A DNA stretch of 64,000 bases from Chthoniobacterales bacterium (GCA_049314455.1 JBMOFC010000001.1:16301-80300); one strand, 5' to 3'; positions 8,623 to 57,950 are shown, counted from the stretch's first letter. Numbers and translations: made by a program. The notes: a model not told the origin generated them from the sequence alone.

Positions 8623-9256
8623 AAGCACTTATTCCTCGGGAAACACTAACCGTAATCTGAAGCTGCCCATTAGCTTCTCAGAGCGAGATTGCATTCCAAA
8701 AAGTCTCATCGGGAAAGAGCTGTACGAGCGTTTTCAGGAGTATGTATTTCGTGCTAACCCTGGAGAGAGCCCTATGGCGCGAGCTTTAGTGGCCCATGGG
8801 TATGAAGTTGTTGATTATCCAATATATCCACAGTATACGGATTCTGACTGGTTAGCTTCTTGTGTTTCAATGGGGGGGCTTAGTATTGTTTTTCGCCAAC
8901 CGACATCTGAGGATCTCTTTGTCTGTTTTATAAAAAGAGAGTCAGAAGATCAAAAAATGGCATCGGCTCTTTTTGGCATTGCGCAATTTTTTGCCTTCTG
9001 TCGCTACGATTGTCCTGGTCTCAAATATGTGGGAGGGAATATCGACAAGCAATTCAACGATGAAAGTCGGGAGTCAAAATTAGAAATGGATAGGCTGGCA
9101 GCTTTTTATAATCGTATTTTAGGAGATGTTGAAGCTTATGAGGAAAGTGGATTGCTTTTTATTTATGCAGAATTGCATCGAGATATACGTTTTAAAAAAT
9201 TTCCTATTTGGAAACGGTGTCGGAGAAGAAACGTGCCCATTCACAAGAACGGGTAA
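8612..9256 (+). CDS. LcrR/PcrR-family T3SS-associated regulator (putative)
   Basis: C-terminal LEMDRLAAFYNRILG and upstream LFVCFIKR pattern resemble LcrR (recalled, not searched); T3SS context. Confidence 0.55.
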   Translation: MNIESTYSSGNTNRNLKLPISFSERDCIPKSLIGKELYERFQEYVFRANPGESPMARALVAHGYEVVDYPIYPQYTDSDWLASCVSMGGLSIVFRQPTSEDLFVCFIKRESEDQKMASALFGIAQFFAFCRYDCPGLKYVGGNIDKQFNDESRESKLEMDRLAAFYNRILGDVEAYEESGLLFIYAELHRDIRFKKFPIWKRCRRRNVPIHKNG

Positions 9257-9395
9257 GAAAATAGAAGTTTGAAGATGGAAGATGGGAGTCGACCTGCTTA
9301 CGCAGGTGAAAATAGTTTGATCAATTGCCGAACGCCTTGGGTTCTATCTTCTATCCACCATCTACTATCTTCCTATCCGTTGCTTTGAACGAATA
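9234..9395. repeat. Hairpin-capped heptamer cassette, copy 1
   Basis: Its reverse complement aligns closely with 50532-50680; CCGTT..AACGG-type hairpins at both ends; GAAGATR/YATCTTC arrays inside. Confidence 0.9.
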
Positions 9396-9442
9396 CAAAG
9401 AACCCTTTTGACCTCATAAAGAAACTGAGTTATTGGTAGCGT

Positions 9443-9958
9443 ATGGCAAATCCTGAAGAGACCATAGAAGAAGAAGTCGCACATGAACCGCTTGAGGAGA
9501 CTATTCCCTTGGATGATGAAACGTCTCAAGAAACAGCATCATCTCAGGGCGAATCTGAGCTTGACAACTTATCTTCTAAAGAAGAAGAACCACAGGAAGT
9601 GCCGCAGAAGGCATTGAAAGAAATAGAACCGACTTCTCTCGAGCCAGGACGCGTGAGTTTAGAATCCTTCAAACAAGCAGTTAAAAAAACATCTCTCAGT
9701 GCAGTAGACACTCCGCAAGCCTTGTCGAAAGGTCCTGTCGCTCCTCTCGGCTTAGAAGTTGAATTATCTTTTGTATTGGGGAGTCAATCGATTCCACTGG
9801 AAGAGGTAAAAACACTCGTCGAAGGGAAGGTTATTTCTCTTAAAGGTTCTCAGTTTGAAGCAAGCATTGTGCTTGAAGAAAAAATCATTGCTCATGCTCA
9901 GTTAATCTTAGTAGAGGGAGTGCCATCTCTTCAAATCACAAAAACAGTCACTGTTTGA
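9443..9958 (+). CDS. Stand-alone SpoA (FliN/SctQ-C-like) domain protein with acidic N-terminus
   Basis: C-terminal VELSFVLGSQSIPLEEVKTLVEGKVISL...IIAHAQLILVEG...LQIT matches the SpoA pattern. Confidence 0.7.
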   Translation: MANPEETIEEEVAHEPLEETIPLDDETSQETASSQGESELDNLSSKEEEPQEVPQKALKEIEPTSLEPGRVSLESFKQAVKKTSLSAVDTPQALSKGPVAPLGLEVELSFVLGSQSIPLEEVKTLVEGKVISLKGSQFEASIVLEEKIIAHAQLILVEGVPSLQITKTVTV

Positions 9959-9992
9959 GGTATGTGGAGCTATCGTCAATTATTTTTAGGAG

Positions 9993-16742: not shown

Positions 16743-16750
16743 AGTCTGTG

Positions 16751-16833
16751 TACCTGTTCAGCAGAACGGGTAAGGTTGCAGACTGCAGGTGAAATAAAGC
16801 CTTTGGCAACGTACTCGTTCAGCGAACGGGTAC
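16751..16833. repeat. Mini hairpin-capped cassette (two TACCCGTTC..GAACGGGTA hairpins)
   Basis: Hairpins at 16751-16772 and 16811-16833; the spacer resembles the sequence after the hairpin at 57828-57849. Confidence 0.8.
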
Positions 16834-16888
16834 TCGGCAGCAACATTGTCTCTTTTGTTGCTTCAACTATTCTTGCTAAGCAGGAGCC

Positions 16889-16978
16889 TGGTGGAGGGGG
16901 TGGGATTCGAACCCACGGAGGCTTTAACACCTCTCCGGTTTTCAAGACCGGTGCAATCAACCGCTCTACCACCCCTCC
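16889..16978 (-). tRNA. tRNA-Ser(TGA)
   Basis: Minus strand reads GGAGGGGTGG...CCGGT-CTTGAAA-ACCGG, long variable arm, GGTTCGAATCC, CCCCTCCACCA with encoded CCA. Confidence 0.97.
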
Positions 16979-19801: not shown

Positions 19802-19981
19802 CCCGGATATTTCATACTGATCTACTGCGGAGACCGGGAAGACAGATGGATGATGCGTTAGACTCACATGTTGACTTGGACAGTATGTATACATACTGTC
19901 CAAGTCAACATGTGAGTCTGCCTTACCCCATCAGCCTTCGCGGCCTCCTCGTTACGATCAGCATGAAATATCCGGGTTAAA
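19797..19981. mobile_element. RPE-like MITE with a perfect 60-bp central palindrome; overlaps the tmk stop
   Basis: TIRs TTTAACCCGGATATTTCAT...ATGAAATATCCGGGTTAAA; perfect palindrome at 19860-19919. Confidence 0.85.
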
Positions 19982-37945: not shown

Positions 37946-37954
37946 GATGAGATG

Positions 37955-37975
37955 TACCCGTTCCCTGAACGGGTG
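37955..37975. repeat. Solo 21-bp hairpin repeat
   Basis: TACCCGTTC-CCT-GAACGGGTG fills the rpoZ-smpB gap. Other solo copies at 2865-2886, 5111-5133, 41605-41625 and 42759-42779. Confidence 0.8.
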
Positions 37976-38194
37976 CTATGCTAATGCTTCTTCTTCGGAA
38001 AGCAGATTCAAGATGGAGACATGGTGAGCAGCGATTTCTGAGAGAGCAATGTCAGCAAATCCCATATTAAAAGCGTTAGCAATCAAAGGGCGGCTTCCTG
38101 CGGTGAGTTGGCGAACACGTTTGCTAACAATATTCACTAGAAGTTGTTTGTTTGGGATCACCAAAGCGGCTTGCTCGATAAGTTGGGAATTCAT
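37976..38194 (-). CDS. rpoZ: RNA polymerase omega subunit
   Basis: LVNIVSKRVRQL..GSRPL..DIALSEIA; 72 aa. Confidence 0.88.
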   Translation of the reverse strand: MNSQLIEQAALVIPNKQLLVNIVSKRVRQLTAGSRPLIANAFNMGFADIALSEIAAHHVSILNLLSEEEALA

Positions 38195-40605: not shown

Positions 40606-40634
40606 GAGAGAATGAGAAAAGTTAGTGGGTATGA

Positions 40635-41599: not shown

Positions 41600-41633
41600 A
41601 GGGTTTCCGTTCACAGGAACGGGTAAAGTAACT

Positions 41634-42748: not shown

Positions 42749-42976
42749 GGGAGGCAGGAACCCGTTCAATAGAACGGTTGTAGTTAAAGTGAAAAGTTGA
42801 AGTAGCAGGCACGCATATCTTTTTAGTAAGATGGGTACTATTCCTTATTCCGTTTTTGTCATTGCCGTAAAGGAAGATTGAAGCATGAAAGTATAAACCG
42901 AGTGCGAAATATAACACCCAAAAATAGTGTTAGAAGCTGAAAAGGATTTACTTCAACTTTAATTTGCAAGGTCAAC

Positions 42977-44026
42977 TCAACTCAATTTTTCCTTGAAAAA
43001 TTGAGTTGCCCCCTCTTCCTCAGAGCGCAAACGTCGTCCCAAAAGTCCTTTGATGGCCTCTCGCGGAGATTTTCCGTTATCCAGGACAGCCACCACTTCA
43101 TCGATAATAGGGACTTCAATGCCTCGCTCTCTTGCGCATTCTTGAGCGCTGCGGGCTGTAAAAAGACCCTCTGCGATCATGGTCATGGAGTGTTCAATTT
43201 GTGTGGGAGATTTTCCTTGAGCGAGTTGCCATCCCACTTGATAGTTGCGGCTTTGGGAGCTAAAGCAGGTGGCCATCAAATCTCCAATACCACTAAGGCC
43301 GCTAAAGGTCTGTGGCCGTCCTCCCATGGACACGCCGAGGCGCGTCATTTCGGCTAAGGCGCGCGTCACAAGCCCCGCACGTGCATTCTCTCCCATGCCT
43401 AATCCATCGGAAGCACCTGTAGCGATCGCAAAAATATTTTTAAGAGCGCCTCCTAATTGAATTCCGGAAACATCACTGCTGGTATAGGCACGATAATGAG
43501 TCTGATGAAAAATATTTTGTAATGAAGCGAGGGCTGCTTCATGGTGGCCGCCGAGAACGCCTGCTGCAGGTAGACCTCGAGCGATTTCACCAGCTAAATT
43601 AGGACCTGAAAGAACTGCAATAGAAGCGGTCGGAATGATTTCTGTGAGGATTTCACTCATGAGCTTTCCGCTCGTGGGTTCAATACCTTTAGTGCAGCTG
43701 ATAATAGTTGGAGTAGTAGAAGGGTCGATGCATGTTGCTAAGGAAGTTGCGACAGCACGAAAAAATTTTGAAGGAACAACAAAAAATAAGATTCCTGCTT
43801 CTGCCGCCTCACTGAGACTTGTCGTGAGGTGAATATTTTCAGGAAAGGTAATTTCTGGCAAATAGCGCGCATTGAGACGTGATTCTTGGATGGCTTGGAG
43901 GTGCGTGGCATTATGGCCCCAGAGAGTAACGGATTTGCCAGCCCGTGCAAAAATAAGTGATAGTGCGCTTCCCCAGCTGCCAGCACCAAGAATGCTTATG
44001 GAATGGGAGGTTTGAGTGAGAGGCAT
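42977..44026 (-). CDS. gpsA: NAD(P)H-dependent glycerol-3-phosphate dehydrogenase
   Basis: GAGSWG, TKGIE, LSGPNLA, GALKNIFAIA, GLSGIGDL..TC.S..SRN. Confidence 0.97.
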   Translation of the reverse strand: MPLTQTSHSISILGAGSWGSALSLIFARAGKSVTLWGHNATHLQAIQESRLNARYLPEITFPENIHLTTSLSEAAEAGILFFVVPSKFFRAVATSLATCIDPSTTPTIISCTKGIEPTSGKLMSEILTEIIPTASIAVLSGPNLAGEIARGLPAAGVLGGHHEAALASLQNIFHQTHYRAYTSSDVSGIQLGGALKNIFAIATGASDGLGMGENARAGLVTRALAEMTRLGVSMGGRPQTFSGLSGIGDLMATCFSSQSRNYQVGWQLAQGKSPTQIEHSMTMIAEGLFTARSAQECARERGIEVPIIDEVVAVLDNGKSPREAIKGLLGRRLRSEEEGATQFFKEKLS

Positions 44027-44030
44027 AAAG

Positions 44031-45708: not shown

Positions 45709-45788
45709 AGGATATAAAAATTTTGGTTTTTCTTTTGTCTGCTGCTTCAGGGAGTGTTGTCCATCAGATGTTGGGTTGTGATTATAGT

Positions 45789-46229: not shown

Positions 46230-46240
46230 AAGACCCTTTT

Positions 46241-47908: not shown

Positions 47909-47967
47909 AAAATGGACCAATACAACTAAAATATTAACTACCAACGTGGCTTGTTGAAAAAAGAATT

Positions 47968-48010
47968 AACCACAAAGAACACATAGATGACACAAAGAAC
48001 ACAAAAAGAA
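47968..48010. repeat. ACACAAAGA-type nonamer repeat tract
   Basis: AACCACAAAGAACACATAGATGACACAAAGAACACAAAAAG. Confidence 0.6.
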
Positions 48011-48104
48011 TTTATTCATAAAAAAATTCTAATAGGTTTTGAGTCCCAGTTTTTTTCTGTGTATTGGTTCCGTTGATAGTCACCATAAAAGAGTAAAACA
48101 AACG

Positions 48105-48432
48105 TATCTGTTCAAAGCAACGGATAGGAAGATAGTAGATGGTAGATAGAAGATGGGGTTTTAGTTTGCTCAGATATACCTTTTGCGGATGATTTTTAGG
48201 AATTTTATACGCAGGAGTTATTTTCTCTGGCAAGACGTTCCGAGCGAGACGCTATGTGAACATAATGTAAGCGAGGACAACGCAGCCAGAGGCAATAAGA
48301 ACTAGTAGAAAATCCTAAAAATCATTCGTGAAAGGTATAGATAAAAAGGAGAATTATTCTTGTAAGAGGGCTTTGATCCTACCTTCTATCTTCAAACTTC
48401 TATCTTCTTACCCGTTGCTGTGAAGGGGGATA
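48105..48432. repeat. Hairpin-capped heptamer cassette, copy 2, containing a nested MITE
   Basis: Left end matches 50532-50581; right end matches the reverse complement of ~9245-9290. Confidence 0.85.
48175..48339. mobile_element. RPE-like MITE bounded by TATA, nested in the cassette
   Basis: TIRs TATACCTTTTGCGGATGATTTTTAGGA...TCCTAAAAATCATTCGTGAAAGGTATA; core GAGCGAGACGCTATGTGAACATAATGTAAGCGAG. Confidence 0.85.
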
Positions 48433-48468
48433 AACAAACAACCCCAGACGTACTAGACATCTGGGGTT
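48432..48468 (-). terminator. Intrinsic terminator of rpoA-rplQ
   Basis: Minus strand AACCCCAGATGT-CTAGT-ACGTCTGGGGTT followed by GTTTGTTT. Confidence 0.6.
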
Positions 48469-48528
48469 ATCGTGATTTTTGTCATGAAGCCTTAGGGGGA
48501 GACCGACTTCACCTGTTCTTGGGAATTA

Positions 48529-48984
48529 TTATTTCTTGGGCGCAGAAACTTTTTTTTCAGCTTTAGCTTTTGGTGCCTTCGCTGTGGTTGTTACAACCTC
48601 TTCTTGAGGTGCCACAGTTTCTGCTGCTACGATGTCCACCCATTCGAGATAGGCCATGGGAGCGCTGTCGCTTTGACGAGGACCGAGTTTCGTAATGCGT
48701 GTGTAGCCTCCTTGTCGGTTAGCAGCAGCAGGAGCTATTTTTTCAAAAAGAATTTTTACAACATCTTTTTGTTTGAGGTAAGAAATGGCAGTACGACGAG
48801 CATGGAGGTCTCCACGTTTGCCAAGAGTCACCATACGTTCTGCAAGTGGCTTCGCAGCTTTTGCTTTAGCCAACGTTGTTTTGATGCGATGATGTTCGAT
48901 CAGGCTGCAAACTTGATTGGCCAACAAGGAATCACGATGAGCCGTCGAGCGGCCGAGTTTAATAGTTTTTCTGCGATGACGCAT
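48529..48984 (-). CDS. rplQ: 50S ribosomal protein L17
   Basis: MRHR..KLGR...HR, IKTTLAKAK, GGYTRI.K...R..D.APMA. Confidence 0.98.
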   Translation of the reverse strand: MRHRRKTIKLGRSTAHRDSLLANQVCSLIEHHRIKTTLAKAKAAKPLAERMVTLGKRGDLHARRTAISYLKQKDVVKILFEKIAPAAANRQGGYTRITKLGPRQSDSAPMAYLEWVDIVAAETVAPQEEVVTTTAKAPKAKAEKKVSAPKK

Positions 48985-49005
48985 AATTTCAAATAGCGGT
49001 AAAAA

Positions 49006-50022
49006 TTATTCTAAGATAGTGGTAGTAATCGAGGTTTGCTCGATGAGACCAGGTTCAAACTTCATTCCAAGACCTAGGCCGAGTTGCACCAATTTTTCTT
49101 TGATCTCATTGAGTGATTTTTTACCAAAGTTGCGGTACTTCAGCATATCAGGCTCTGATTTGGTTGCGAGTTGGCCAACAGTGGTGATGTTGGCATTATT
49201 GAGGCAGTTAGCAGCACGTACTGAGAGCTCAATTTCATTCACGCTCATGGCTAAGAGTTTCTTGAGACGGCTGTTTTCTTGGCTGACTTCTGTAGGAGTT
49301 TCATCGAACTCGACTTGCGTGTCATCAAAGTTAACAAAGACATCGAGATGATGGCGTAGAATTGCTGAAGCTTGAAGAATAGCTTCCTCAGGGGTAACGC
49401 GGCCATCTGTCCAAATTTCAAGAATGAGCTTATCGTAGTCAGTCCGTTGTCCCACACGTGTATTTTCTACGGCATACTTCACGCGAGTGACAGGAGAGAA
49501 AATAGAATCGATAGCAATGACCCCGACAGCCATATCAGGATATTTATTTTCATCGCCAGTGGCAAAACCACGACCTACTTTGATTTCGAACTCTGCTTCG
49601 AATTTTGTTTTTTTATCCAGCGTGCAAATGTGTTGATCTGGGTTGAGAACCTCACACTGAGCTGTTGAAGCGATATCGCCTGCCGTGACGGCTCCCTCCT
49701 TGTGTACCGAAAGAGTAAGTGTGCGCACATCGTGGTCGTGAGCCTTGAACTTTACTTTTTTCAAATTAAGGATGATTTCGACAACATCCTCCACAACACC
49801 AGGAAGACTGGTGAACTCATGAGGAGCTCCTTCAATACGAATAGAAGTAATGGCAGCACCTTCGAGTGACGAGAGTAAGGTGCGGCGCAACGAATTTCCA
49901 ATCGTGTGGCCATAGCCAGCTTCAAAGGGTTCTGCAATAAATTTTGCGTAGGTTTCTGTGGCGGTAGCTTCTTCTTTAACAAGAGCTTTCGGCATTTCAA
50001 AACGACCAAGACGAATAGGCAT
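49006..50022 (-). CDS. rpoA: RNA polymerase alpha subunit
   Basis: EPFEAGYGHTIGNSLRRTLLSS, DSIFSPV, ELSVRAANCL, NFGKKSLNEI. Confidence 0.99.
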   Translation of the reverse strand: MPIRLGRFEMPKALVKEEATATETYAKFIAEPFEAGYGHTIGNSLRRTLLSSLEGAAITSIRIEGAPHEFTSLPGVVEDVVEIILNLKKVKFKAHDHDVRTLTLSVHKEGAVTAGDIASTAQCEVLNPDQHICTLDKKTKFEAEFEIKVGRGFATGDENKYPDMAVGVIAIDSIFSPVTRVKYAVENTRVGQRTDYDKLILEIWTDGRVTPEEAILQASAILRHHLDVFVNFDDTQVEFDETPTEVSQENSRLKKLLAMSVNEIELSVRAANCLNNANITTVGQLATKSEPDMLKYRNFGKKSLNEIKEKLVQLGLGLGMKFEPGLIEQTSITTTILE

Positions 50023-50288
50023 AATAATAATATTTCTTGTGCCGGGTTTCCCTTAGCGCATCTGGCAATGAGGCTGAAGCGTCATCACCTAAGGACCAAC
50101 GGCGACTTCTGGAATAAGGTTGCGCGAGCCAGTAAAGTTAATGGCTTTTTTTTTAGAAGCAAGGATTTTTTATGGACATGTCAAAAAACAAAATGCCACA
50201 CGAGATGGATTATCACTTTTTTTACTTCAGAGTTCCCCAAGGCGGAACGATTTTGCTAGCCGTGATTGAGCCTGGATCATTTTTTAGC

Positions 50289-50456
50289 TCAGAAGAAGGT
50301 TTTTTTCTTCTTTGAAGATACTTGTGTTATGTTTGACGCAGTGCTGGTTTGCCTTCCTTGTTCTACATTTGTTTCTGATTCTTTTGCATCATCTTGAGGA
50401 AGCTTTGAGTATGATATTGCTCCATACTTAGGGAATTTGGTGTTTGAAAAGCTCAT
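50289..50456 (-). pseudogene. Short Ser/Thr-rich ORF (55 aa), possibly a truncated orphan
   Basis: Translated by hand: MSFSNTKFPKYGAISYSKLPQDDAKESETNVEQGRQTSTASNITQVSSKKKKTFF*; the stop follows an A-run. Confidence 0.3.
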
Positions 50457-50531
50457 GGTTTGTATAGATGGAATGTTTGTAACAGCTCAGGTATCTAAAA
50501 AGCAGACTATCTCAATGTGTTATTATCGTCG

Positions 50532-50680
50532 TATCCGTTCAAAGCAACGGATAGGAAGATAGTAGATGGTAGATAGAAGATAGGATCCAAGGCTTTCGGC
50601 AATTGATCAACCTATTTTCACCAACCTAAGCAGGTCGACTCCCATCTTCCATCTTCTTAACCATTCCTATGAACGGGCAC
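50532..50680. repeat. Hairpin-capped heptamer cassette, copy 3
   Basis: TATCCGTTCAAAGCAACGGATA + GGAAGAT AGTAGAT GGTAGAT AGAAGAT + core + CCCATCTTCCATCTTC + ACCATTCCTATGAACGGGCAC; inverted near-copy of 9234-9395. Confidence 0.9.
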
Positions 50681-50708
50681 TTATCGTCTACTTCCAGGTT
50701 TAGGGGTT

Positions 50709-50953
50709 TAGAGCATTTTAAAAAATTCTGTAGCCGCACCTTGTGGTGTCACTCCGAACGTCATCCCCGCGAAGGCGGGGATCGCGTTCTCGAGTATCGC
50801 TGGCTACACTGCGGGTCTGCGCTCCTCGTTTGACTCGCTTTGCGAAGCTCACCTCGCCCTGGCTGGTCTGCCTAACGGCAGTCTGCCCGACCGACTCCCG
50901 TCGGGTCGTGTTCTGACAATGCCATCGACTACAGAATTTTTTTAAACGCTCTA
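50709..50953. mobile_element. Composite RPE-like MITE with nested REP hairpin
   Basis: TIRs TAGAGCATTTTAAAAAATTCTGTAG...CTACAGAATTTTTTTAAACGCTCTA; nested CGTCATCCCCGCGAAGGCGGGGATC at 50759-50783. Confidence 0.88.
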
Positions 50954-51140
50954 GGGGATGCCCTAGAAGCTGCTACACAGCTTGTTTAAATATAAATCTT
51001 CTGAAGATCGCTTTGCGTATTGTGTTCATGATTTCAAGAATTTTCCCCTCAACCCTTCAACCCCTAAACAAGGAACTCGGTAATGATTACTGAGTAAGTT
51101 ATCTTATTTTTCTAAGACTCCTGAGTAGTTACGAATGTTC

Positions 51141-52157
51141 CTATGTTGTCACCGTCGCAAGTGTCTGTAATATGCGACCAGCGATTTTGTAAGGATCACC
51201 TTGGGAGTTCGGACGGCGATCTTCAAGGTAGCCTTTGTAACCGTTGTTCACGAAACTGTGTGGTACACGAATAGAGGCGCCGCGGTTGGCAACGCCATAG
51301 TTAAATTTATCAATCGATTGAGTTTCATGAAGTCCGGTAAGGCGTAGATGATTGTCAGGCCCATAGACGGCGATATGTTCATTTTTATAGTTGTCAAAAG
51401 CCATCATGACTTTTTCAAAATATTCTTTACCACCATGCTCGCGGAGTTTTTTGGTCGAAAAGTTGCAATGCATTCCCGAGCCGTTCCAATCAAGATCCTT
51501 GCCGAGCGGCTTGCAATGGTATTCTACATCGATACCGTAGCTTTCCCCTAGGCGCTGCAAGAGGTATCTTGCTATCCAGACCTCATCAGCAGCTTTTTTG
51601 GAACCTTTGCCAAAAATTTGAAACTCCCATTGTCCTTTGGCGACTTCTGCATTAATCCCTTCGTGATGGATGCCGGCGGCCAAGCAGATTTCGAGATGTT
51701 CGTAGACCATTTGACGTGCCTGAGAACCAATATTGGAAAATCCAACACCACAGTAATACTGACCTTGTGGAGCAGGGTATCCCTCCTTTGGAAAACCCAG
51801 AGGTCGACCATCTTGGTAGAGAAAATATTCTTGTTCAAAACCAAACCACGCATCGGGATCATCTAAAATTGTAGCACGAGCATTTGATGGGTGAGGTGTG
51901 CCATCAGGCATCATGACTTCACACATGACTAAAAAAGCATCTTCCATCGTGACATCTGGATAGAGCGCTACAGGCTTCAACATACAATCAGAGCTCTTTC
52001 CCTCTGCTTGACGTGTCGAACTTCCATCAAAACTCCATGCTGGAATGTCTGCGAGTGTTGGTTCCGTTGTAAATTCTTTAACCTGTAATTTGCTGCGGAG
52101 GTTGGGGACAGGTTCATAACCGTCGAGCCAGATATATTCTAATTTGTACTTAGTCAT
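51141..52157 (-). CDS. glnII: Glutamine synthetase type II (GSII)
   Basis: 338 aa; LEYIWLDG, WSFDGSST, GFEQEY, GINAEVAKGQWEFQI, DWNGSGMH, RLTGLHET, GYLEDRRP. Confidence 0.92.
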   Translation of the reverse strand: MTKYKLEYIWLDGYEPVPNLRSKLQVKEFTTEPTLADIPAWSFDGSSTRQAEGKSSDCMLKPVALYPDVTMEDAFLVMCEVMMPDGTPHPSNARATILDDPDAWFGFEQEYFLYQDGRPLGFPKEGYPAPQGQYYCGVGFSNIGSQARQMVYEHLEICLAAGIHHEGINAEVAKGQWEFQIFGKGSKKAADEVWIARYLLQRLGESYGIDVEYHCKPLGKDLDWNGSGMHCNFSTKKLREHGGKEYFEKVMMAFDNYKNEHIAVYGPDNHLRLTGLHETQSIDKFNYGVANRGASIRVPHSFVNNGYKGYLEDRRPNSQGDPYKIAGRILQTLATVTT

Positions 52158-52299
52158 GGGAGCTAGAAATGTTGGAGTGAAACGTGCTGAAAAAATGATT
52201 GTAAAAAAAAATAATGACCAATCAAGTCACTTCTGACTTTATTATTGGAAATTCTGTTTTTCCTTTCCTTCTACTTCCACTTTCCACTTCAACTAAGCA

Positions 52300-52689
52300 A
52301 TGCAAGAAGTCAAAGATACATTACGAGCCACGGTTCATGTCACCTTTGATGGACGTGTGATCAAGCAGTTCCGAGGTCCTAAGGCAAAGGAGCGCTTTGC
52401 CAACGAAGTAGAAGTGCTTGGCTATTTGGAAAAGAAAGCTTGTTTTTTTGTGCCTCGCTTACTAGAGGTCGATGAGGATCGTTTGAAAATTGTCACTACA
52501 AACTGCGGTAGTCGTGTGGAGTATCTGGATGAGGAGCGCCAGAAAGAACTCTTCAAAGAGCTCGAACAATATGGCGTTCGCCATGATGATCCTGACAAAC
52601 GCAATGTGACCTACCGTCAAAAAGATGGTCGTTTTTGTCTAATCGATTTTGAATTTGCAACGATTTTGGGAGAACATTCACAAGGATAA
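52300..52689 (+). CDS. Miniature protein-kinase-fold protein (129 aa)
   Basis: RVIK (beta3 Lys), FANEV (alphaC Glu), HDDPDKRN (catalytic loop), IDFEFA (DFG-like). Confidence 0.75.
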   Translation: MQEVKDTLRATVHVTFDGRVIKQFRGPKAKERFANEVEVLGYLEKKACFFVPRLLEVDEDRLKIVTTNCGSRVEYLDEERQKELFKELEQYGVRHDDPDKRNVTYRQKDGRFCLIDFEFATILGEHSQG

Positions 52690-52721
52690 AAAATCTCTTT
52701 GTTTTCATCCCTTCCATCCCT

Positions 52722-53588
52722 GTGAATTACTCCTCTCCACCAATCTTGCGCTGGTCTGCGCACACCGATATCGGGCGTGTTCGTAAAAACAATGAAGACA
52801 GTTTTTTGGGGATCGTACTCGATACTCAAGAAGTTTCCTATTTGGGGAAAATAGGAGAGCTTTCGGATTATTCGAAGGATTATGTTTTTGCAGTGAGTGA
52901 TGGGATGGGAGGGGCAATGGCAGGTGAGTTTGCAAGCCGGATTGCTGTTGAAAAAATCACCAAGATGTTCCCCATCTACTGCAGTAAAAAAATAACAAAT
53001 CATGCTGCTGCCCTAGAAAATGATTCCTTTTACCAGTTCTTAATTGCGTTGTTTCAAGAAATTCATAGAGCTCTTCTTTTGTTGAGTGCTAGTTACGCGG
53101 AATGCCATGGTATGGGGACAACTCTGACCCTTTGCTGGATACAACATCAGCGGCTCTATTTTGCACATATCGGTGATAGTCGTCTTTACTATCTTCCCAA
53201 AGGAGGTGGTATTCAGCAAATTTCGGAAGATGATACGCATGTAGGGTGGCTTTTTCGCCAAGGAATGATTACGGAATACGAATCCAAAAATCATCCTCGT
53301 CGTAACTTGCTTCAAAAGGTACTTGGAGCGGATCATCAATTTGTCACGCCTCAGGTCGGCTTTCTGACACCTGCTCCCGGTGATCGCTTTTTGATTTGCT
53401 CCGATGGAGTAAACGATGGACTTTTCGATGCTCAGCTTCTTGATATTCTCAACACATTTACTCCTCAATCCCCCGCGCAACACCTCGTTCAGGAGGCGGT
53501 CGATCGCTCAGGTAGAGATAATGCAACGGCGATTGTCATCGAGTATCATTTCAACTTTCAGGAGAAAATTGAGATGAGTTTAAGTTGA
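52722..53588 (+). CDS. PP2C/PPM family Ser/Thr phosphatase
   Basis: TDIGRVRKNNEDS, VSDGMGG, MGTT, HIGDSRLY, CSDG, RDNAT. Confidence 0.94.
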   Translation: MNYSSPPILRWSAHTDIGRVRKNNEDSFLGIVLDTQEVSYLGKIGELSDYSKDYVFAVSDGMGGAMAGEFASRIAVEKITKMFPIYCSKKITNHAAALENDSFYQFLIALFQEIHRALLLLSASYAECHGMGTTLTLCWIQHQRLYFAHIGDSRLYYLPKGGGIQQISEDDTHVGWLFRQGMITEYESKNHPRRNLLQKVLGADHQFVTPQVGFLTPAPGDRFLICSDGVNDGLFDAQLLDILNTFTPQSPAQHLVQEAVDRSGRDNATAIVIEYHFNFQEKIEMSLS

Positions 53589-53673
53589 AAGTTGAAGTTG
53601 AAGCAGCACTCTCCTAGCTTGCAAGCAATAGAAACTCTAGGTACTTTCCTTCTTCCAATCTTTCAAATAATCT

Positions 53674-54420
53674 ATGAAACCATTAGAAAATCAGGTAGCC
53701 ATTGTCACCGGTGCTGGCCGAGGAATCGGCGAGGCCATTGCTCACCAACTCGCGCTCCAAGGCGCTAAAGTCGCGGTTGTGAGTCGTAGTGAGGCTAATT
53801 CCTCACGCGTGGCAGATGCCTTGAACCAAAAAATAGCAGGAAGTGCCAAAGCCTATGCAGTCGATGTGGCCGATTTTGAGTTGGTCCAAAAAGTCGGAGA
53901 GCAAATCATCATTGATTTTGGACGTGTTGATATTTTAGTCAACAATGCAGGGATCACCCGCGATACGCTGCTCATGCGGATGTCTTCGGAAGATTGGGAT
54001 GCTGTTCTTAACGCCAATCTCAAAGGAGCCTTTAATTTTGTTCGTGCTGTCCTGCGCCCTATGATGAAGGCCCGCTCGGGACGTATCATCAATATTAGTT
54101 CCGTGAGCGGCATCATGGGGAATGCCGGCCAAACCAATTACGCGGCAAGCAAAGCCGGCTTGATTGGCTTTAGCAAAAGCCTTGCTCGTGAAATTGCAAG
54201 TCGCAACATTACCGTCAATGTTGTCGCTCCTGGATTTATCGAAACAGACATGACTGCTGTGCTCAGCGAAGAAATTCAAAAAGCGGTCGTCACTCAAATC
54301 CCTCTAGCACGCTTTGGGAAACCAGATGATATCGCCACTGCCGTCGCCTATCTTGCAGGGCCACATGCGGGCTATATTACCGGGCAGGTATTAGCTATCG
54401 ATGGAGGGATGTCCATGTAA
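53674..54420 (+). CDS. fabG: 3-oxoacyl-ACP reductase
   Basis: TGAGRGIG, NNAGITRD, GNAGQTNYAASK, VAPGFIETDMT. Confidence 0.96.
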   Translation: MKPLENQVAIVTGAGRGIGEAIAHQLALQGAKVAVVSRSEANSSRVADALNQKIAGSAKAYAVDVADFELVQKVGEQIIIDFGRVDILVNNAGITRDTLLMRMSSEDWDAVLNANLKGAFNFVRAVLRPMMKARSGRIINISSVSGIMGNAGQTNYAASKAGLIGFSKSLAREIASRNITVNVVAPGFIETDMTAVLSEEIQKAVVTQIPLARFGKPDDIATAVAYLAGPHAGYITGQVLAIDGGMSM

Positions 54421-54558
54421 CATGGGGTTAAATTCTACTGAGGCTGCGAAGAACCGTGTTGCTGCGGTGCTCGCTCCCTCACGTATTGCTATACGCTCGG
54501 TCCTTGCGCTCCTCGACGTCTTATTCTTCATCAGCCTCAGCGAATTTAACCCCATGTT
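54419..54558. mobile_element. RPE-like MITE overlapping the fabG stop codon
   Basis: TIRs AACATGGGGTTAAATT...AATTTAACCCCATGTT; core GCTGCGGTGCTCGCTCCCTCACGTATTGCTATACGCTCGGTCCTTGCGCTCCTCGA. Confidence 0.9.
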
Positions 54559-54593
54559 GCTGCGAGAAAAGTCAACTTCAACTGGTTGAAGAG

Positions 54594-54656
54594 CGGGTCT
54601 GCGCGCCGTCGCTCCTGCTCCTTCATCAGCATCAGCGAACTTGAAGAGGGTTTTCT
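54594..54656. repeat. Half-copy of the obgE-subfamily MITE amid AACTTCA-type arrays
   Basis: Reverse complement AGAAAACCCTCTTCAAGTTCGCTGATGCTGATGAAGGAGCAGGAGCGACGGCGCGCAG aligns with ~56913-56970. Confidence 0.7.
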
Positions 54657-54837
54657 GGGTAGGTTCGGAGTGAGTTTAAAACCAGGTTGCTATGAGAAAA
54701 GATTTCTCTGCTTTAACTTCAACTTGTAACTTCAACTACCGCGAAGCGGTAGGATGCGCGCCGTCGCCTTGTTTATCAGGTTCTTTTAGTTTGAACTTGC
54801 TGACGGCAAGAATATAAGCTCGTCACTTAAAAAAACG

Positions 54838-55332
54838 ATGATTCTTTATCTTCTTAGACATGCTGAAGCAGGTCTCAAAACCAAACATGGTGACTCGAAA
54901 CGTGCACTAACGGAAGTTGGAAAACAGCAAGCGATGCGCATGGGTGCATTTTTTCAAAAACATCAGATCCAACTGGAGTTGGTTTTAACAAGCCCATTCT
55001 GTCGAGCAGTGAAGACGATGGAGGCTTTTTTTGAAACAAGTCTTACAGTTCCTTTCCTCGAGGTTCCTTGGATGGCCTCTGGTATGTCGTCCGAGACGGC
55101 ACTGAAAGAGCTTCAAGCTTATAAAAAACTTGAATCGGTGATGCTCGTAGGACATGAGCCTGATTTTAGTCATTTGATTGCAACCATGCTAGGAATGACT
55201 CATGCAGAAAATGTCAACGTTCCTAAAGCGTCCTTGACTGCTATTCAATTAGAAAAAATTGCTTCAGGCACAGGAGTACTTCAGTTCTTGATTCCTGTGG
55301 AGTTAGTCGATGAAAAATTTTTAGCTTCATGA
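54838..55332 (+). CDS. sixA: Phosphohistidine phosphatase
   Basis: LYLLRHAEA, RALT, SPFCRA, LVGHEP. Confidence 0.9.
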   Translation: MILYLLRHAEAGLKTKHGDSKRALTEVGKQQAMRMGAFFQKHQIQLELVLTSPFCRAVKTMEAFFETSLTVPFLEVPWMASGMSSETALKELQAYKKLESVMLVGHEPDFSHLIATMLGMTHAENVNVPKASLTAIQLEKIASGTGVLQFLIPVELVDEKFLAS

Positions 55333-56546
55333 AACTCCTTTTACTCACCAAAGAATATCCTCCTCATATTTACGGTGGAGCAGGGGTGCATGTAGAGTAT
55401 CTCAGTCGCGAGCTTGCTAAATTGATTTCCTTGGAAGTGCGTTGTTTTGGGGAACAGCATCAGAGCACGGAACATTTTTCTGTGCGTGGATTTTCTAGTA
55501 ACGGGCTCTTTTTGGAGTGTGCCAAGCAGTTGCAAAGTCCATTGGATGCGGCTTGGCGAGGGATTCAGTTCAATGCAGTAGGGATTGATGCTGATCTTGT
55601 CCATTGCCATACCTGGTACACCTATCTAGGCGGAATCATGGCAAAACAGCTTTATGGAATTCCACTCGTGGTCACCGTTCATTCTTTAGAGCCCCTACGT
55701 CCTTGGAAACGAGAGCAGTTAGGAGGAGGCTATGATTATTCTTGTTGGATTGAAAAGCAGACACTCACCATGGCAGATGCGGTCATTGCTGTTTCTGAGG
55801 AGACGAAACAAGATATCCTCACTCATTTTAAAATTCCAGAAGAGCGCATTTCTGTGATTCATAATGGTATTGATTTAGAAGAATATTCTAGAAGGCAAGA
55901 TCAGCATTGCTTGAAAAAACATGGGATTAACCCGCAACAGCCTTACATCCTTTTTGTAGGTCGTATCACACGTCAAAAAGGTATCATTCATCTCGTGCAT
56001 GCGATTGAAGAGATGGATCCCGGTTTTCAAATTGTCTTATGCGCAGGTGCTCCCGATACCCCAGAGATTGCTCGTGAAATGAAAATGGCTGTAGCAAAAA
56101 TTCAGGAGCGTCGTCCAGGAGTTATCTGGATTAGTGATATGGTTGAGCATCATGAAATCATTGCGCTCTATTCGGGAGCTGCTGTTTTTGTGTGTCCTTC
56201 GATTTACGAACCTTTTGGAATTATTAATTTGGAAGCGATGGCCTGTGGTGTTCCTGTGGTGGCCTCTGCGGTCGGTGGGATTAAAGAAGTTGTGGTCGAT
56301 GGAGTGACCGGATTTTTAGTCCCCTGTGAGCAGATAGAGGGAGATTCTGATATCTTATATCCAGAAAAATTCGCTCACGATCTTGCTAGTTATGTGAATC
56401 AATTGATGGCAGATCCTATTCTTGCAGCCACGATGGGGGCTGCAGGCCGACTCCGTGCAGAAAAATATTTTTCTTGGGAGAGGATTGCTAAGAAAACAGA
56501 GCGACTTTATGCTCAGGTTCTGAAAGACTCTAGCGATGTTCATTGA
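55329..56546 (+). CDS. glgA: GT4 glycogen synthase / maltose-1-phosphate synthase (actinobacterial GlgA/GlgM type)
   Basis: TKEYPPHIYGGAGVHV, HTWY, HSLEPLRPWKREQLGGGY, GRITRQKG, YEPFGIINLEAMAC. Confidence 0.9.
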   Translation: MKLLLLTKEYPPHIYGGAGVHVEYLSRELAKLISLEVRCFGEQHQSTEHFSVRGFSSNGLFLECAKQLQSPLDAAWRGIQFNAVGIDADLVHCHTWYTYLGGIMAKQLYGIPLVVTVHSLEPLRPWKREQLGGGYDYSCWIEKQTLTMADAVIAVSEETKQDILTHFKIPEERISVIHNGIDLEEYSRRQDQHCLKKHGINPQQPYILFVGRITRQKGIIHLVHAIEEMDPGFQIVLCAGAPDTPEIAREMKMAVAKIQERRPGVIWISDMVEHHEIIALYSGAAVFVCPSIYEPFGIINLEAMACGVPVVASAVGGIKEVVVDGVTGFLVPCEQIEGDSDILYPEKFAHDLASYVNQLMADPILAATMGAAGRLRAEKYFSWERIAKKTERLYAQVLKDSSDVH

Positions 56547-57807
56547 TCGTATTCGTATTCATGCAAAAGCCGGAAAGGGAGGCAATGGTTGTGCTAGCTT
56601 TCGTCGGGAGAAGTTTATTCCTAAAGGTGGCCCAGATGGCGGTGATGGAGGCGATGGAGGAAGTGTGATTCTGAGGGCTAGTACGAATGAAACACAGTTG
56701 GCTTCGTTGTTTTACAAACCAATCTTACGTGCTAAAAATGGAGCTCCCGGGTCGAGTCGTCAAAAACATGGAAAGTCTGCTCCTGACTTAATCATTCCTG
56801 TTCCTGTCGGAACCTTGGTTTATCGTGTGCCTGCACCCCAGGCCTCACCAGCCTTGGAAGAAGAGTTCGAGGCTTCTGAAAAAAAAGAGGATACTTCCTC
56901 CGCTCCAACATCAAAACCTGTTTTCAAAGTCGCTGTGGCTGATGAGGGGGAAGGAGCCGCCGACGTGCAGCGAAGGAGTGTACTTAACGTACTCGATGGA
57001 GAGAGCACCGGCGTGACGCAGTCCATCGCAGTCACAGTAGACTCTGAGAGCAGGTTCTCAGAACCTCGTTCTAAACTAGCCACTCCTGATCCTGACGATT
57101 TAGTAGCCGACTTAGCACAGTCAGGAGAAGAATTTGTCCTTTGCTTAAAAGGGCATGGAGGACGTGGAAACATTCATTTTAAAAGTTCGCGTAATCGTGC
57201 TCCGCGTCGCTTTACAGAAGGAACAGAAGGAGAAGAGGGATGGTTTCTTTTAGAACTCCGCACCATTGCTTTTGCAGGACTGGTCGGATATCCGAATGCT
57301 GGAAAATCAACTTTGCTTCGCGCTCTTTCGGCAGCCCATCCCAAAGTGGCTTCGTATGCTTTTACCACACGCCATCCACATGTTGGTGTTGTCGATTTAG
57401 ACGATTATAAGCACACCACTGTTGCCGACATTCCTGGGCTCATCGAAGGAGCTAGTCATAATCGTGGTCTAGGACATGCTTTTCTAAGACACATCATGCG
57501 TTGTCCCTTTTTACTCTTTGTGCTCGATATGGCTGGCACTGACGACCGCAAGCCATGGAATGACCTCCGTGTTTTAAGAAAAGAAATAGAGCTCTACGAT
57601 CCCGAATTAGCAGCACGTCCCTGGTGTGTGATTGCAAATAAAATGGATTCTCCGGAAGCGGCAAAAAATCTGACTCAATTTCGTAAAAAAAATCCTGACC
57701 TCAAGGTGATTCCTATTTGTGCAGAATTAGGGGAGGGCATAGACGCAGTCAAAAAAATGCTTCAAGAGGAAGTGGCTTCTTCGAATCCCATCGCACTGGA
57801 GGTTTGA
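56536..57807 (+). CDS. obgE: GTPase Obg with an in-frame palindromic insertion
   Basis: FRREKFIPKGGPDGGDGG, GYPNAGKSTL, DIPGLIEGA, NKMD; ~90-aa insert between VPVGTLVYR and LVADL. Confidence 0.97.
   Translation: MFIDRIRIHAKAGKGGNGCASFRREKFIPKGGPDGGDGGDGGSVILRASTNETQLASLFYKPILRAKNGAPGSSRQKHGKSAPDLIIPVPVGTLVYRVPAPQASPALEEEFEASEKKEDTSSAPTSKPVFKVAVADEGEGAADVQRRSVLNVLDGESTGVTQSIAVTVDSESRFSEPRSKLATPDPDDLVADLAQSGEEFVLCLKGHGGRGNIHFKSSRNRAPRRFTEGTEGEEGWFLLELRTIAFAGLVGYPNAGKSTLLRALSAAHPKVASYAFTTRHPHVGVVDLDDYKHTTVADIPGLIEGASHNRGLGHAFLRHIMRCPFLLFVLDMAGTDDRKPWNDLRVLRKEIELYDPELAARPWCVIANKMDSPEAAKNLTQFRKKNPDLKVIPICAELGEGIDAVKKMLQEEVASSNPIALEV
56913..57058. mobile_element. RPE-like MITE inserted in frame in obgE
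   Basis: TIRs AAAACCTGTTTTCAAAGTC...GACTCTGAGAGCAGGTTCT; homologous to the intergenic copy at 35430-35528. Confidence 0.85.
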
Positions 57808-57827
57808 TGGTACGTGGATGTAGAGAA

Positions 57828-57950
57828 TACCCGTTCAGCAGAATGGGTAAGGTTACAGACTACAGGCTGCAGGTAAAATGAAGCTTTCAGCGACTGAAGG
57901 TCTTTTGTAATTTTAAAACTCTTTGTTGTACTTCACCCTTGAATGGGCCC
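57828..57950. repeat. Hairpin-capped cassette related to 16751-16833
   Basis: TACCCGTTCAGCAGAATGGGTA-AGGTTACAGACTACAGGCTGCAGGTAAAATGAAGC versus TACCTGTTCAGCAGAACGGGTA-AGGTTGCAGACTGCAGGTGAAATAAAGC; right end degenerate. Confidence 0.75.

What the first reader, a model, noticed from the sequence alone, without database searches (positions are those of the whole stretch)
9234..57950. Hairpin-capped, heptamer-armed miniature cassette family (possibly undescribed)
Seen: a ~22-bp hairpin TACCCGTTC-N3-4-GAACGGGTA occurs about 14 times. It appears solo (2865, 5111, 37955, 41605, 42759) or as both caps of a cassette: hairpin, purine-rich heptamer array, core, inverted heptamer array, hairpin. Full cassettes are at 9234-9395, 48105-48432 and 50532-50680; shorter relatives are at 16751-16833 and 57828-~57950. 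Copies 9234 and 50532 are near-identical in inverted orientation 41 kb apart, including the core, so the unit spread as a whole. The same hairpin goes with different heptamer types. At 9234 it supplies the last codons and stop (PIHKNG*) of the lcrR-like gene. Known: terminal hairpins are the recognition sites of HUH transposases (IS200/IS605 TnpA, RAYT/REPIN). Inference: a non-autonomous element or gene-cassette system, mobilised in trans, that may carry cargo elsewhere in the genome.
Basis: partly seen in the sequence, partly recalled or inferred. Interest (0 to 1): 0.72.

Follow-up and report, generated by a model that had tools for sequence, protein, structure and literature searches.

The report
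Hairpin-ended miniature transposons, IS66 type
The repeated hairpin marks both ends of a family of small non-coding jumping DNA elements that duplicate 8 bases where they land, and that most likely descend from an IS66-type insertion sequence, not from a hairpin-cutting HUH enzyme or a gene-cassette system.

Summary
A roughly 24-bp palindromic cap, G-TAYCCGTTC-N4-GAACGGRTA-C, occurs at 11 sites in the window (0.36 expected) and 223 times in the 2.0-Mb genome (3-8 in controls). The caps are strongly paired at 60-450 bp.

The units are mobile and non-autonomous:
- Twenty elements of 88-453 bp carry 8-bp target-site duplications directly outside the caps.
- Paralogous and orthologous empty sites hold one copy of the 8-mer.
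- None of these elements contains an ORF.

A fixed 8-bp duplication points to a DDE transposase rather than an HUH enzyme. The genome's only Y1/RAYT-like gene is flanked by a different repeat, which forms its own REPIN-like doublets.

In a congeneric genome (G006), decayed pieces of an IS66-family transposase, laid out as a single ORF like ISBst12, end in the same cap on both the 5' and the 3' side. This fits the published IS66 traits of GTA/GTG termini and 8-bp repeats. No such transposase is present in this assembly, so the family is orphan here.

Caps also occur alone with perfect 8-bp duplications. These are most simply deletion remnants. The scan had already noted other MITE families and heptamer palindromes in this genome, but not this one.

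Verdict: a new miniature transposon (MITE) family of moderate interest.

The parts
2856..2895 (.). Solo cap (G at 2864, hairpin 2865-2886, C at 2887) between sctR/fliP and the next gene. It is flanked by a perfect 8-bp duplication, AAAGGACG, at 2856-2863 and 2888-2895.
   Evidence: The roughly 32-bp insert is missing at this site in 10 of 10 aligned relatives.
5111..5133 (.). Degenerate half cap (only the GAACGGGTAC arm is intact), just after the sctU-like gene end.
   Evidence: It is not found at 3 mismatches or fewer.
8612..9256 (+). LcrR-family ORF whose last codons and stop (VPIHKNG-stop) lie inside the left cap of the next element.
   Evidence: G001 has its stop just before the insertion point.
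9225..9404 (.). 164-bp cap-array-core-array-cap element (9233-9396) with a flanking 8-mer in 6/8 agreement (GAAGAAAC / AAAGAACC).
   Evidence: The orthologous spacer in G001 lacks the element and reads AAAGAAGC once.
16750..16880 (.). One-capped element (cap 16750-16773, GCTRTAG-like arm). A second solo cap with a 3-nt loop is nested at 16811-16833, flanked by TTGGCAAC / TCGGCAGC (6/8). It lies next to a tRNA gene at 16892-16978.
   Evidence: Uninterrupted sister copies are seen (read by eye).
37954..37976 (.). Solo cap with a 3-nt loop, 8 nt upstream of the smpB start codon. No clear duplication (4/8 by eye).
41603..41626 (.). Cap 5 nt after the stop of a polysaccharide deacetylase gene, followed by a short GTTGAAG-type remnant.
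42758..42985 (.). Decayed element: one cap, a GTTGAAG-type array, and the inverted array near 42940-42985, with no second cap.
48096..48439 (.). Cap element 48104-48431 with a perfect duplication, AAACAAAC, at 48096-48103 and 48432-48439. Its core is split at a TA by a different, nested MITE at 48175-48339 (31-nt inverted ends).
   Evidence: (I8). An uninterrupted 163-bp sister lies at C8:18417-18579.
50523..50688 (.). 150-bp cap element 50531-50680 with a perfect duplication, TTATCGTC, at 50523-50530 and 50681-50688. It is inserted in another dispersed repeat.
   Evidence: Seven paralogous empty sites were found, for example C4:64696-64765 with one TTATCGTC. It folds as a long imperfect hairpin, -19.6 kcal/mol, z -2.8.
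57827..57950 (.). One-capped element (cap 57827-57850, GCTRTAG-like arm), 21 nt after the obg stop.

Best explanation
The hairpin is the terminal inverted repeat of a family of foldback-type MITEs. Each element reads: cap, purine-rich heptamer array, short core, the inverted array, cap.

Shown:
- The element is inserted as a unit, with a staggered cut that duplicates 8 bp of target.
- It carries no gene.

Inferred:
- It was moved in trans by a DDE transposase of the IS66 family, with a single-ORF layout like ISBst12. That transposase's own ends carry the same cap.
- Only the roughly 23-bp cap is needed for recognition. This would explain why subfamilies with three unrelated array types and several cores share it.
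- Copies survive mainly in spacers just after stop codons, where they do least harm.
- Solo caps with intact duplications are what remains after the interior was deleted between the two near-identical caps, as happens with solo LTRs.

The transposase is not in this assembly and is decayed in the relative, so the family is probably no longer moving here.
For: Duplications:
- 13 of 62 adjacent cap pairs have at least 7/8 matching flanks, against 0.6 expected and a maximum of 4 in 200 shuffles.
- At a fixed offset (one base outside the TA), 20 elements of 88-453 bp score at least 7/8, and none longer than 500 bp does.

Empty sites:
- Paralogous: window 50531-50680 (7 sites), C5:54871, C26:11393 (nested in another cap element), C49:5242 and the solo C7:30714.
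- Orthologous: G001 for 9233-9396 and 10 of 10 relatives for the solo at 2865.
- 33 orthologous loci in relatives hold no caps apart from 2 weak 3-mismatch hits.

Parent element in G006, the relative with the second most caps (19):
- It holds IS66-family pieces (PF03050, NF033517).
- In L121 the transposase ATG lies 77 bp inside the cap GTACCCGTTCAGCCGAGCGGAAA, with no tnpA or tnpB between them.
- In L122 the transposase C-terminus (model positions 337-384 of 387) ends about 20-40 bp from the cap GTATCCGTTCACGCGAGCGGAAT.
- Both outer ends face away from the gene, and 16 columns are invariant between these ends and the window's MITE ends.

Literature: ISDge4 of the ISBst12 group has TIRs starting GTGA/GTAA, one ORF and an 8-bp direct repeat (PMC12898284, passages).
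Against: - No IS66-type transposase is found in G000, by HMM or by tblastn with the G006 pieces (all E > 0.8).
- Across 13 genomes of the genus, IS66 hits occur only in G004 (0 caps) and G006 (19 caps). None occurs in G008, G011, G002 or G012, which have 8, 4, 3 and 2 caps.
- The G006 pieces are decayed: an in-frame TAA, truncations and another insertion. The two ends lie on different contigs, so no complete element with its own duplication was seen.
- The inner arm of the IS ends (GAGCGGAA) differs from that of the MITE caps (GAACGGRTA).
- Only 20 of roughly 56 multi-cap clusters keep a clear duplication.
- The deletion origin of solo caps is inferred, not shown.
- The role of the heptamer arrays is unexplained.
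Confidence: 0.68

Rival explanations
1. REPIN-like elements: the cap is a REP sequence cut and joined as single-stranded DNA by the genome's Y1 (RAYT-like) HUH transposase.
For: - The caps are hairpins, and they often occur as inverted doublets that fold back.
- One Y1 gene with an intact HUH motif (HYH) exists. It matches PF01797 at 38.9 bits, and NF047646 at 52.6 bits, below that model's cut-off of 80.
Against: - The 8-bp duplications and single-copy empty sites are not left by IS200/IS605-type enzymes (established knowledge, recalled).
- The Y1 gene is flanked on both sides by a different repeat, GGGGTCAGGCTAAGAATATTGAC. That repeat has 34 copies and 16 doublets spaced about 68 bp apart.
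- The nearest caps on that contig are 1.3 and 2.8 kb away, with other ORFs in between.
- Y1 presence does not track cap presence in relatives.
Confidence: 0.03
2. The 24-bp cap is itself the mobile unit: two 10-bp ends facing each other. It inserts alone, and two caps that land on either side of any DNA, such as this genome's common heptamer palindromes, make that DNA mobile as a composite element.
For: - Solo caps with perfect 8-bp duplications at window 2865, C12:145 and C40:9351, plus 7/8 at C7:30714 and C24:7308. That is 6 caps at 7/8 or better, against 0.28 expected.
- Empty sites exist for solos.
- The same cap sits on three unrelated array types.
- The arm 9-mer occurs almost only as a full hairpin: 173 of 219 occurrences, and the 46 lone arms compare with roughly 58 expected by chance.
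- Heptamer arrays are common without caps: 261 arrays, and 0 of 78 arrays of three frequent types are capped.
Against: - Every solo is equally explained by deletion between the two caps of a full element.
- Single caps in capped cassettes show little sign of their own duplication: in the group with an array on one side, 3 of 115 score 6/8 or better.
- A 24-bp duplex is too short for two ends to be synapsed by known DDE transposases (established knowledge, recalled).
- The IS ends in G006 already carry the whole 23-nt cap, so the cap is an ordinary terminal repeat.
Confidence: 0.14
3. A MITE family moved by some other DDE transposase that makes 8-bp duplications (for example IS256, ISL3, IS1595 or IS6). 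On this view the caps next to the IS66 pieces in G006 are unrelated MITE insertions.
For: - No complete IS66 element bounded by two caps was seen.
- MITEs of this family do insert into other repeats.
Against: - Two independent IS66 pieces abut caps at the positions and orientations expected for the two termini.
- Those two caps share a variant inner arm (CGAGCGGAA) with each other.
- No IS256, ISL3, IS1595, DDE_Tnp_1 or rve transposase is found in G000 either.
Confidence: 0.1
4. A non-mobile functional motif, either a terminator or a protein-binding hairpin, kept by selection at gene 3' ends.
For: - 50 caps lie 1-25 nt after a gene end, against 19 expected.
- 8 caps lie within 25 nt of a gene start, against 31 expected.
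- 172 of 223 caps lie outside crude ORFs in a genome that is 84% coding.
- Relatives show the same placement.
Against: - The duplications and empty sites show insertion.
- The sites are not conserved in relatives.
- No T-run follows the stem; the flank is purine-rich array or unrelated sequence.
- The placement bias is what purifying selection on insertions would leave. A later regulatory effect on some genes is not excluded.
Confidence: 0.03

Closest known systems
IS66 family, ISBst12 group (single-ORF members such as ISDge4; PMC12898284, passages read)
   Same: - 8-bp target duplication.
- Termini beginning GTA/GTG.
- In G006, a single transposase ORF starting 77 bp inside the end, with leucine-zipper, zf-IS66 and DDE_Tnp_IS66 parts.
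   Different: - The window's elements have no transposase.
- Their 23-nt end is a near-perfect palindrome.
- Their interior is built of heptamer arrays.
- No intact parent element was found in this genome or its relatives.
Bacterial MITEs in general (for example MITEPsy1, PMC3189936, passages read; Correia/NEMIS elements, recalled)
   Same: Small, non-coding, with terminal inverted repeats, a fixed-length target duplication, many dispersed copies, insertion into other repeats, and occasional supply of gene ends.
   Different: - Those examples make 2- or 4-bp duplications and derive from IS630- or IS5-type elements.
- I found no IS66-derived MITE described. One search returned 14 papers holding IS66, MITE and 'miniature inverted', of which I read passages from 2.
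REPINs and their RAYT transposases (PMC3116915, passages read)
   Same: Short palindromes, inverted doublets that fold into a long hairpin, intergenic placement, and singlets alongside doublets.
   Different: - REPINs flank their RAYT gene, and no target duplication is described for them (recalled).
- The cap family shows 8-bp duplications and does not flank the Y1 gene.
- A separate repeat in this genome does fit the REPIN pattern.
Convergent heptamer-repeat pairs, such as the GGGAATC arrays of Xanthomonas (PMC4692102, passages read)
   Same: Two arrays of a 7-nt unit in inverted orientation, lying in intergenic DNA close behind the upstream ORF.
   Different: No terminal cap, no duplication and no mobility is reported for them in the passages read. 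Here a subset of arrays is bounded by caps and demonstrably inserted as a unit.
Small dispersed repeats (SDR) of Nostoc (Elhai et al. 2008, Genome Res 18:1484). The paper is not held; only its reference entry was seen, and its content is recalled.
   Same: As recalled: hairpin-forming repeats of 21-27 nt, found inside MITEs and next to tandem heptamers.
   Different: As recalled, no transposase and no fixed duplication were tied to SDRs. I could not check this.
Foldback (FB) transposons of eukaryotes (recalled, not checked)
   Same: Long inverted arms made of short tandem repeats, with a conserved tip and little or no middle.
   Different: They occur in eukaryotes, the transposase is unrelated, and they are much larger.

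Membership tests
MITE (non-autonomous DDE transposon derivative) | Small size and no coding capacity | tested here: met
   The duplication-bounded units are 88-453 bp. Their interiors are arrays, short cores or nested MITEs.
MITE (non-autonomous DDE transposon derivative) | Terminal inverted repeats shared by all copies | tested here: met
   The 22-24-nt cap sits at both ends in inverted orientation.
MITE (non-autonomous DDE transposon derivative) | Target-site duplication of fixed length, present once at empty sites | tested here: met
   The duplication is 8 bp. 13 of 62 pairs score at least 7/8, against 0.6 expected. Empty sites were found.
MITE (non-autonomous DDE transposon derivative) | A full-length element with the same ends that encodes the transposase | tested here: inconclusive
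   Only decayed pieces were found, on separate contigs of relative G006. None was found in G000.
IS66 family (ISBst12-like) | 8-bp direct repeats on insertion | tested here: met
   The family trait is taken from PMC12898284 and from recall of ISfinder.
IS66 family (ISBst12-like) | Ends beginning GTA(A)/GTG | tested here: met
   The ends read GTAYCCGTTC. ISDge4 ends read GTGACT.../GTAACT....
IS66 family (ISBst12-like) | IS66 DDE transposase lying between the matching ends | tested here: inconclusive
   In G006, caps abut both the N-terminal and the C-terminal transposase pieces, but never on one contig. The transposase is not found in G000.
REPIN/RAYT system | The repeat flanks the RAYT gene | tested here: not met
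   The Y1 gene C71:1586-2638 is flanked by a different repeat. The nearest caps are 1.3 and 2.8 kb away.
REPIN/RAYT and IS200/IS605 derivatives | Insertion without target duplication, next to a short specific target | tested here: not met
   8-bp duplications are present, and the 22 target 8-mers listed show no common sequence.
Intrinsic terminator | GC-rich stem followed by a T-run | tested here: not met
   No T-run follows the stem; the flank is a purine-rich array or unrelated sequence.
Gene-cassette system (integron-like) | Recombination sites that bound ORF-bearing cassettes, with a cognate integrase | tested here: not met
   No ORF lies inside any of the 20 bounded units. An integrase was not searched for.

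The most novel reading that the evidence does not exclude
The 24-bp palindromic cap is the smallest working transposon end-pair: two opposed 10-bp ends separated by 4 nt. It can insert on its own, and any two caps make the DNA between them mobile. This would be how an otherwise unexplained class of bacterial repeats, inverted heptamer arrays, gets copied around this genome. It would also give a bacterial, DDE-based counterpart to the very small mobile repeats reported in cyanobacteria.
Probability: 0.14. Interest if true: 0.6.

Novelty: new member of a known kind. Interest (0 to 1): 0.38.

Why it matters
- It corrects an attractive but wrong mechanistic label. The elements are DDE-type, not HUH-type, and the same genome supplies a contrast in its real RAYT gene with its own doublet repeat.
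- It adds a MITE family that appears to derive from the little-studied IS66/ISBst12 group. My two literature searches found no described MITE of that origin.
- It shows that some of the puzzling heptamer-array palindromes of this lineage were spread by ordinary transposition.
- For annotation, the elements rewrite gene ends (the LcrR-like gene) and sit inside type III secretion operon spacers. They also break assemblies: many contigs end in a cap.

Tried and rejected
- **Exact consensus:** I replaced it with a degenerate pattern.
- **Transposases in G000:** IS66, IS256, DDE_Tnp_1, ISL3, IS1595 and rve were not found. One DDE_3 (IS630-type) gene lies at C56:10752-11147. It belongs to the TA-duplicating kind and was not followed.
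- **Long cap pairs:** no pair 500-6000 bp apart carries a duplication.
- **Small contigs:** the ORFs of C77 and C80 looked like housekeeping genes by eye and were not scanned.
- **Collection scans:**
  - Genome contigs gave 69 loci. Most are single hits in unrelated phyla. Records with several hits are all Verrucomicrobiota or Chthoniobacterales MAGs.
  - Metagenome contigs gave only 2 loci.
  - Of 111 ORFs lying within 250 bp of those hits, I scanned 25 ORFs against Pfam, nearly all drawn from that list and all at loci of verrucomicrobial, planctomycete and kiritimatiellal records plus the two metagenome loci. None is a transposase.
- **Order-wide search:** the G006 transposase piece found only 27-31% identical relatives, in 5 of the other 200 genomes searched.
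- **Sequencing runs:** no RNA holder is listed.
- **Contigs of 4 DNA runs laid on 40500-58500:** joints exist, for example 50522 to 50681, which skips 158 (150 plus 8). With 25-26 letters on the shorter side they fit the genome's paralogous empty copies. They say nothing about excision or circles.
- **Rfam:** only a tRNA at 16892-16978.
- **tRNA as cargo:** the tRNA between caps at C2:18522-18715 has no duplication.
- **Chimeric stems in solo caps** as a test of the deletion model: the counts are too small to tell.
- **Elhai 2008** is not held.
- **Earlier-findings look-ups:** by sequence, nothing was found.

Full report
**Setting.** The window is G000:C1:16301-80300, from a draft genome of 2.0 Mb in 86 contigs with 43.8% G+C. 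Earlier notes of this scan call the genome an uncultured freshwater member of the Chthoniobacterales (Verrucomicrobiota). The only public records with several exact cap matches carry Verrucomicrobiota or Chthoniobacterales titles. The window holds type III secretion genes (sctR/fliP, sctU, an LcrR-family gene, a FliN-type gene and a YscD-like gene), rpoA, rplQ, glnA, obg, smpB and dxs.

**Observation.**
The degenerate form TAYCCGTTS-N5-AACGGRTA with up to 3 mismatches gives 11 sites, against 0.36 expected.
Site 5111 is only a half hairpin and 37955 has a 3-nt loop.
- The cassettes at 9234-9395, 48105-48430 and 50532-50679 are real. The first and third are 92% complementary over 131 nt.
- Genome-wide there are 223 caps, against 3-8 in Markov controls. 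Of 165 neighbour distances, 68 are under 500 bp, against about 9 expected. The caps form 155 clusters: 99 single, 45 double, 10 triple and 1 quadruple.
- Exact 9-nt arms occur 219 times, 173 of them inside a full hairpin. The 46 lone arms compare with roughly 58 expected by chance.

**Anatomy.**
- A typical unit is cap, purine-rich heptamer array, short core, the inverted array, cap.
- The array abutting a cap is of type GAAGATR (59 caps), GCTRTAG (35) or GTTGAAG (30). It is always on one side only, and 99 caps have no array by a strict criterion.
- Period-7 arrays are common in this genome without caps. There are 261 arrays of at least 2.8 units, and 0 of 78 arrays of the types GGAGGCT, GTCAGTT and AAAGAGT are capped.
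- The 150-nt copy at 50531-50680 folds as one long imperfect hairpin, -19.6 kcal/mol with z -2.8.
- The 326-bp copy at 48105-48430 is a 162-bp element whose core is split at a TA by a different MITE at 48175-48339. Earlier notes reported IS630-type MITEs of this kind in the same genome.

**Mobility.**
- The element is bounded one base outside the TA (G-TA...TA-C), and an 8-bp direct repeat lies directly outside that.
- With offsets of 0-2 allowed, 13 of 62 adjacent pairs match at 7/8 or better, against 0.6 expected and a maximum of 4 in 200 shuffles.
- At the fixed offset, 20 elements of 88-453 bp match at 7/8 or better, and no pair up to 6 kb apart does beyond 453 bp.
- The remaining pairs show no clear repeat. 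Many are neighbours from different elements, or old copies.
- In the window, 48104-48431 has AAACAAAC twice, 50531-50680 has TTATCGTC twice, and 9233-9396 has GAAGAAAC/AAAGAACC (6/8).
- Empty sites confirm insertion:
  - The host repeat around 50531-50680 occurs seven more times without the element and with one TTATCGTC, for example on C4.
  - Three further elements and one solo cap have paralogous empty sites.
  - G001 lacks the 9233-9396 element and reads AAAGAAGC once.
- 33 orthologous loci from three neighbourhoods in relatives carry no cap, apart from two weak 3-mismatch hits in one locus. The window's insertions are therefore specific to this lineage.

**Solo caps.**
- Some single caps have their own perfect duplication: window 2865 (AAAGGACG), C12:145 and C40:9351. 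C7:30714 and C24:7308 score 7/8. In all, 6 caps score 7/8 or better, against 0.28 expected.
- The cap at 2865 adds about 32 bp between sctR and the next gene, and it is missing in 10 of 10 relatives.
- Most single caps by the 500-bp rule still have an array on one side, so they are ends of decayed elements.
- I read the true solos as deletion products. This is inference, and independent insertion of the 24-bp unit is not excluded.

**Which enzyme.**
- A fixed 8-bp duplication is the mark of a staggered cut by a DDE-type transposase. IS200/IS605 and REPIN-type HUH systems leave none (established knowledge, recalled).
- The genome has one Y1 gene, 351 aa with the HUH motif HYH. It scores 52.6 bits against the REP-associated tyrosine transposase model, below the cut-off of 80.
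- That gene is flanked downstream by a perfect 109-bp doublet and upstream by a singlet of a different repeat, GGGGTCAGGCTAAGAATATTGAC. This repeat occurs 34 times, mostly as inverted doublets about 68 bp apart. It is the arrangement expected for a RAYT with its own REPINs, and it leaves the cap family without an HUH partner.
- Y1 homologues do not follow the cap in relatives either.

**Parent element.**
- Across 41 genomes including G000, the cap (up to 1 mismatch) is found only in six genomes of the genus: G000 has 70, G006 19, G008 8, G011 4, G002 3 and G012 2.
- A family search for IS66 transposases in 13 genomes of the genus hit G004 and G006.
- In G006 the pieces are decayed but informative.
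  - **L121:** the ORFs encode a leucine zipper, zf-IS66 and the start of the DDE domain (NF033517 positions 1-178, E 1.2e-34). One in-frame TAA splits them. The ATG lies 77 bp inside the cap GTACCCGTTCAGCCGAGCGGAAA, whose outer end faces away, and there is no room for tnpA or tnpB.
  - **L122:** the last 46 matched residues (model positions 337-384 of 387) end about 20-40 bp from the cap GTATCCGTTCACGCGAGCGGAAT, again with the outer end facing outward.
  - The two IS-end caps share an inner-arm variant with each other. They align with the window's MITE ends at 16 invariant columns.
- Published ISBst12-group behaviour matches: ISDge4 has one ORF, ends GTGACT.../GTAACT... and an 8-bp direct repeat (PMC12898284, passages).
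- Evidence against this link:
  - No complete element was seen, and the two ends lie on different contigs.
  - G000 has no trace of the transposase.
  - Four other cap-bearing relatives gave no IS66 hit.
  - The closest homologues elsewhere in the order are only 27-31% identical.

**Placement and effects.**
- With a crude ORF-based gene call (84% coding), 172 of 223 caps lie outside ORFs.
- 50 caps lie 1-25 nt after a gene end, against 19 expected. 8 lie within 25 nt of a start, against 31 expected.
- I take this as survival bias, as for other MITEs and REPs. A secondary role in transcript ends was not tested.
- The copy at 9233 replaces the tail of the LcrR-family protein and supplies its stop.

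**Comparison with what is known, and novelty.**
- The family meets the MITE criteria, except that an intact parent is missing.
- It works like an IS66/ISBst12 derivative, and I file it there with about two-thirds confidence.
- It resembles REPINs in shape only.
- Its arms resemble the convergent heptamer arrays of Xanthomonas (PMC4692102, passages) and, from recall, the hairpin SDRs of Nostoc (paper not held).
- Two literature searches gave no description of MITEs in Verrucomicrobia or of IS66-derived MITEs:
  - 369 papers hold at least 2 of the 3 terms, and none of the 10 listed holds the term Verrucomicrobia.
  - 14 papers hold the three terms, 12 were listed, and I read passages in 2.
  This is a limited search, and supplements were not looked at.
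- The scan had already recorded other MITE families and heptamer palindromes in this genome, but not this sequence.
- I rate it a new member of a known kind, of moderate interest. The boldest reading, the cap as a minimal transposon that builds composite elements, remains open at about one in seven.

Noticed in passing
G000 contig C71:1472-2700 (outside the window); copies on C2, C4, C7, C12, C14, C17, C25, C46, C56: The genome's only Y1/RAYT-like gene (351 aa, HUH motif HYH) is flanked by a perfect 109-bp palindromic doublet on one side and a singlet on the other. Both belong to the repeat GGGGTCAGGCTAAGAATATTGAC, which has 34 copies, 16 of them inverted doublets about 68 bp apart. This looks like a RAYT/REPIN system in a verrucomicrobium.
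   Followed up: partly
window 50710-50955 and 44996-45098; more than 20 copies genome-wide: A repeat of about 245 bp, containing GTCATCCCCGCGAAGGCGGGGATC, is present at 85-96% identity on many contigs. It lies next to the cap element at 50531-50680.
   Followed up: no
window 50476-50530 plus 50681-50711; paralogues on C3, C4, C5, C9, C25, C26, C71: The DNA that hosts the 50531-50680 insertion is itself a dispersed repeat. A filled version recurs on C60 and, in the opposite orientation, on C49, so the host repeat seems to have spread after it was hit.
   Followed up: partly
window 48175-48339: A different 165-bp MITE with 31-nt inverted ends is inserted at a TA inside the core of a cap element. 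It matches the IS630-type MITEs noted earlier in this genome. One DDE_3 transposase gene lies at C56:10752-11147.
   Followed up: partly
window 27200-35431: An ORF of 2743 aa is built from many diverged repeats of about 60 aa (D1-D7), reminiscent of polymorphic or autotransporter-like surface proteins. It sits in a 2-Mb genome that also encodes a type III secretion system.
   Followed up: no
window 19860-19919: A perfect 60-bp palindrome: 30-nt arms, 100% complementary, with no spacer (I5).
   Followed up: no
genome-wide, e.g. C1:14012-14072 (outside the window): Long arrays of other heptamers, (GTCAGTT)n, (GGAGGCT)n and (AAAGAGT)n, occur 24-30 times each and are never capped. The first resembles the TAACTGA-type heptamers mentioned in earlier notes.
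   Followed up: no
G000 C4:77296-77384, C10:3904-3992, C38:9244-9332, C49:12085-12173, C8:11722: A conserved 89-nt module between an AATCCGTTCTGCTAAACGGATA cap and a TATCCGGACCGCTGAACGGGTA cap forms the right part of a 211-258-bp subfamily. Three of those copies have 7-8/8 duplications.
   Followed up: partly
G000 C2:18522-18715: A tRNA gene lies between two caps 194 bp apart, but without a flanking duplication. In the window a cap element also sits beside a tRNA gene (16892-16978).
   Followed up: partly
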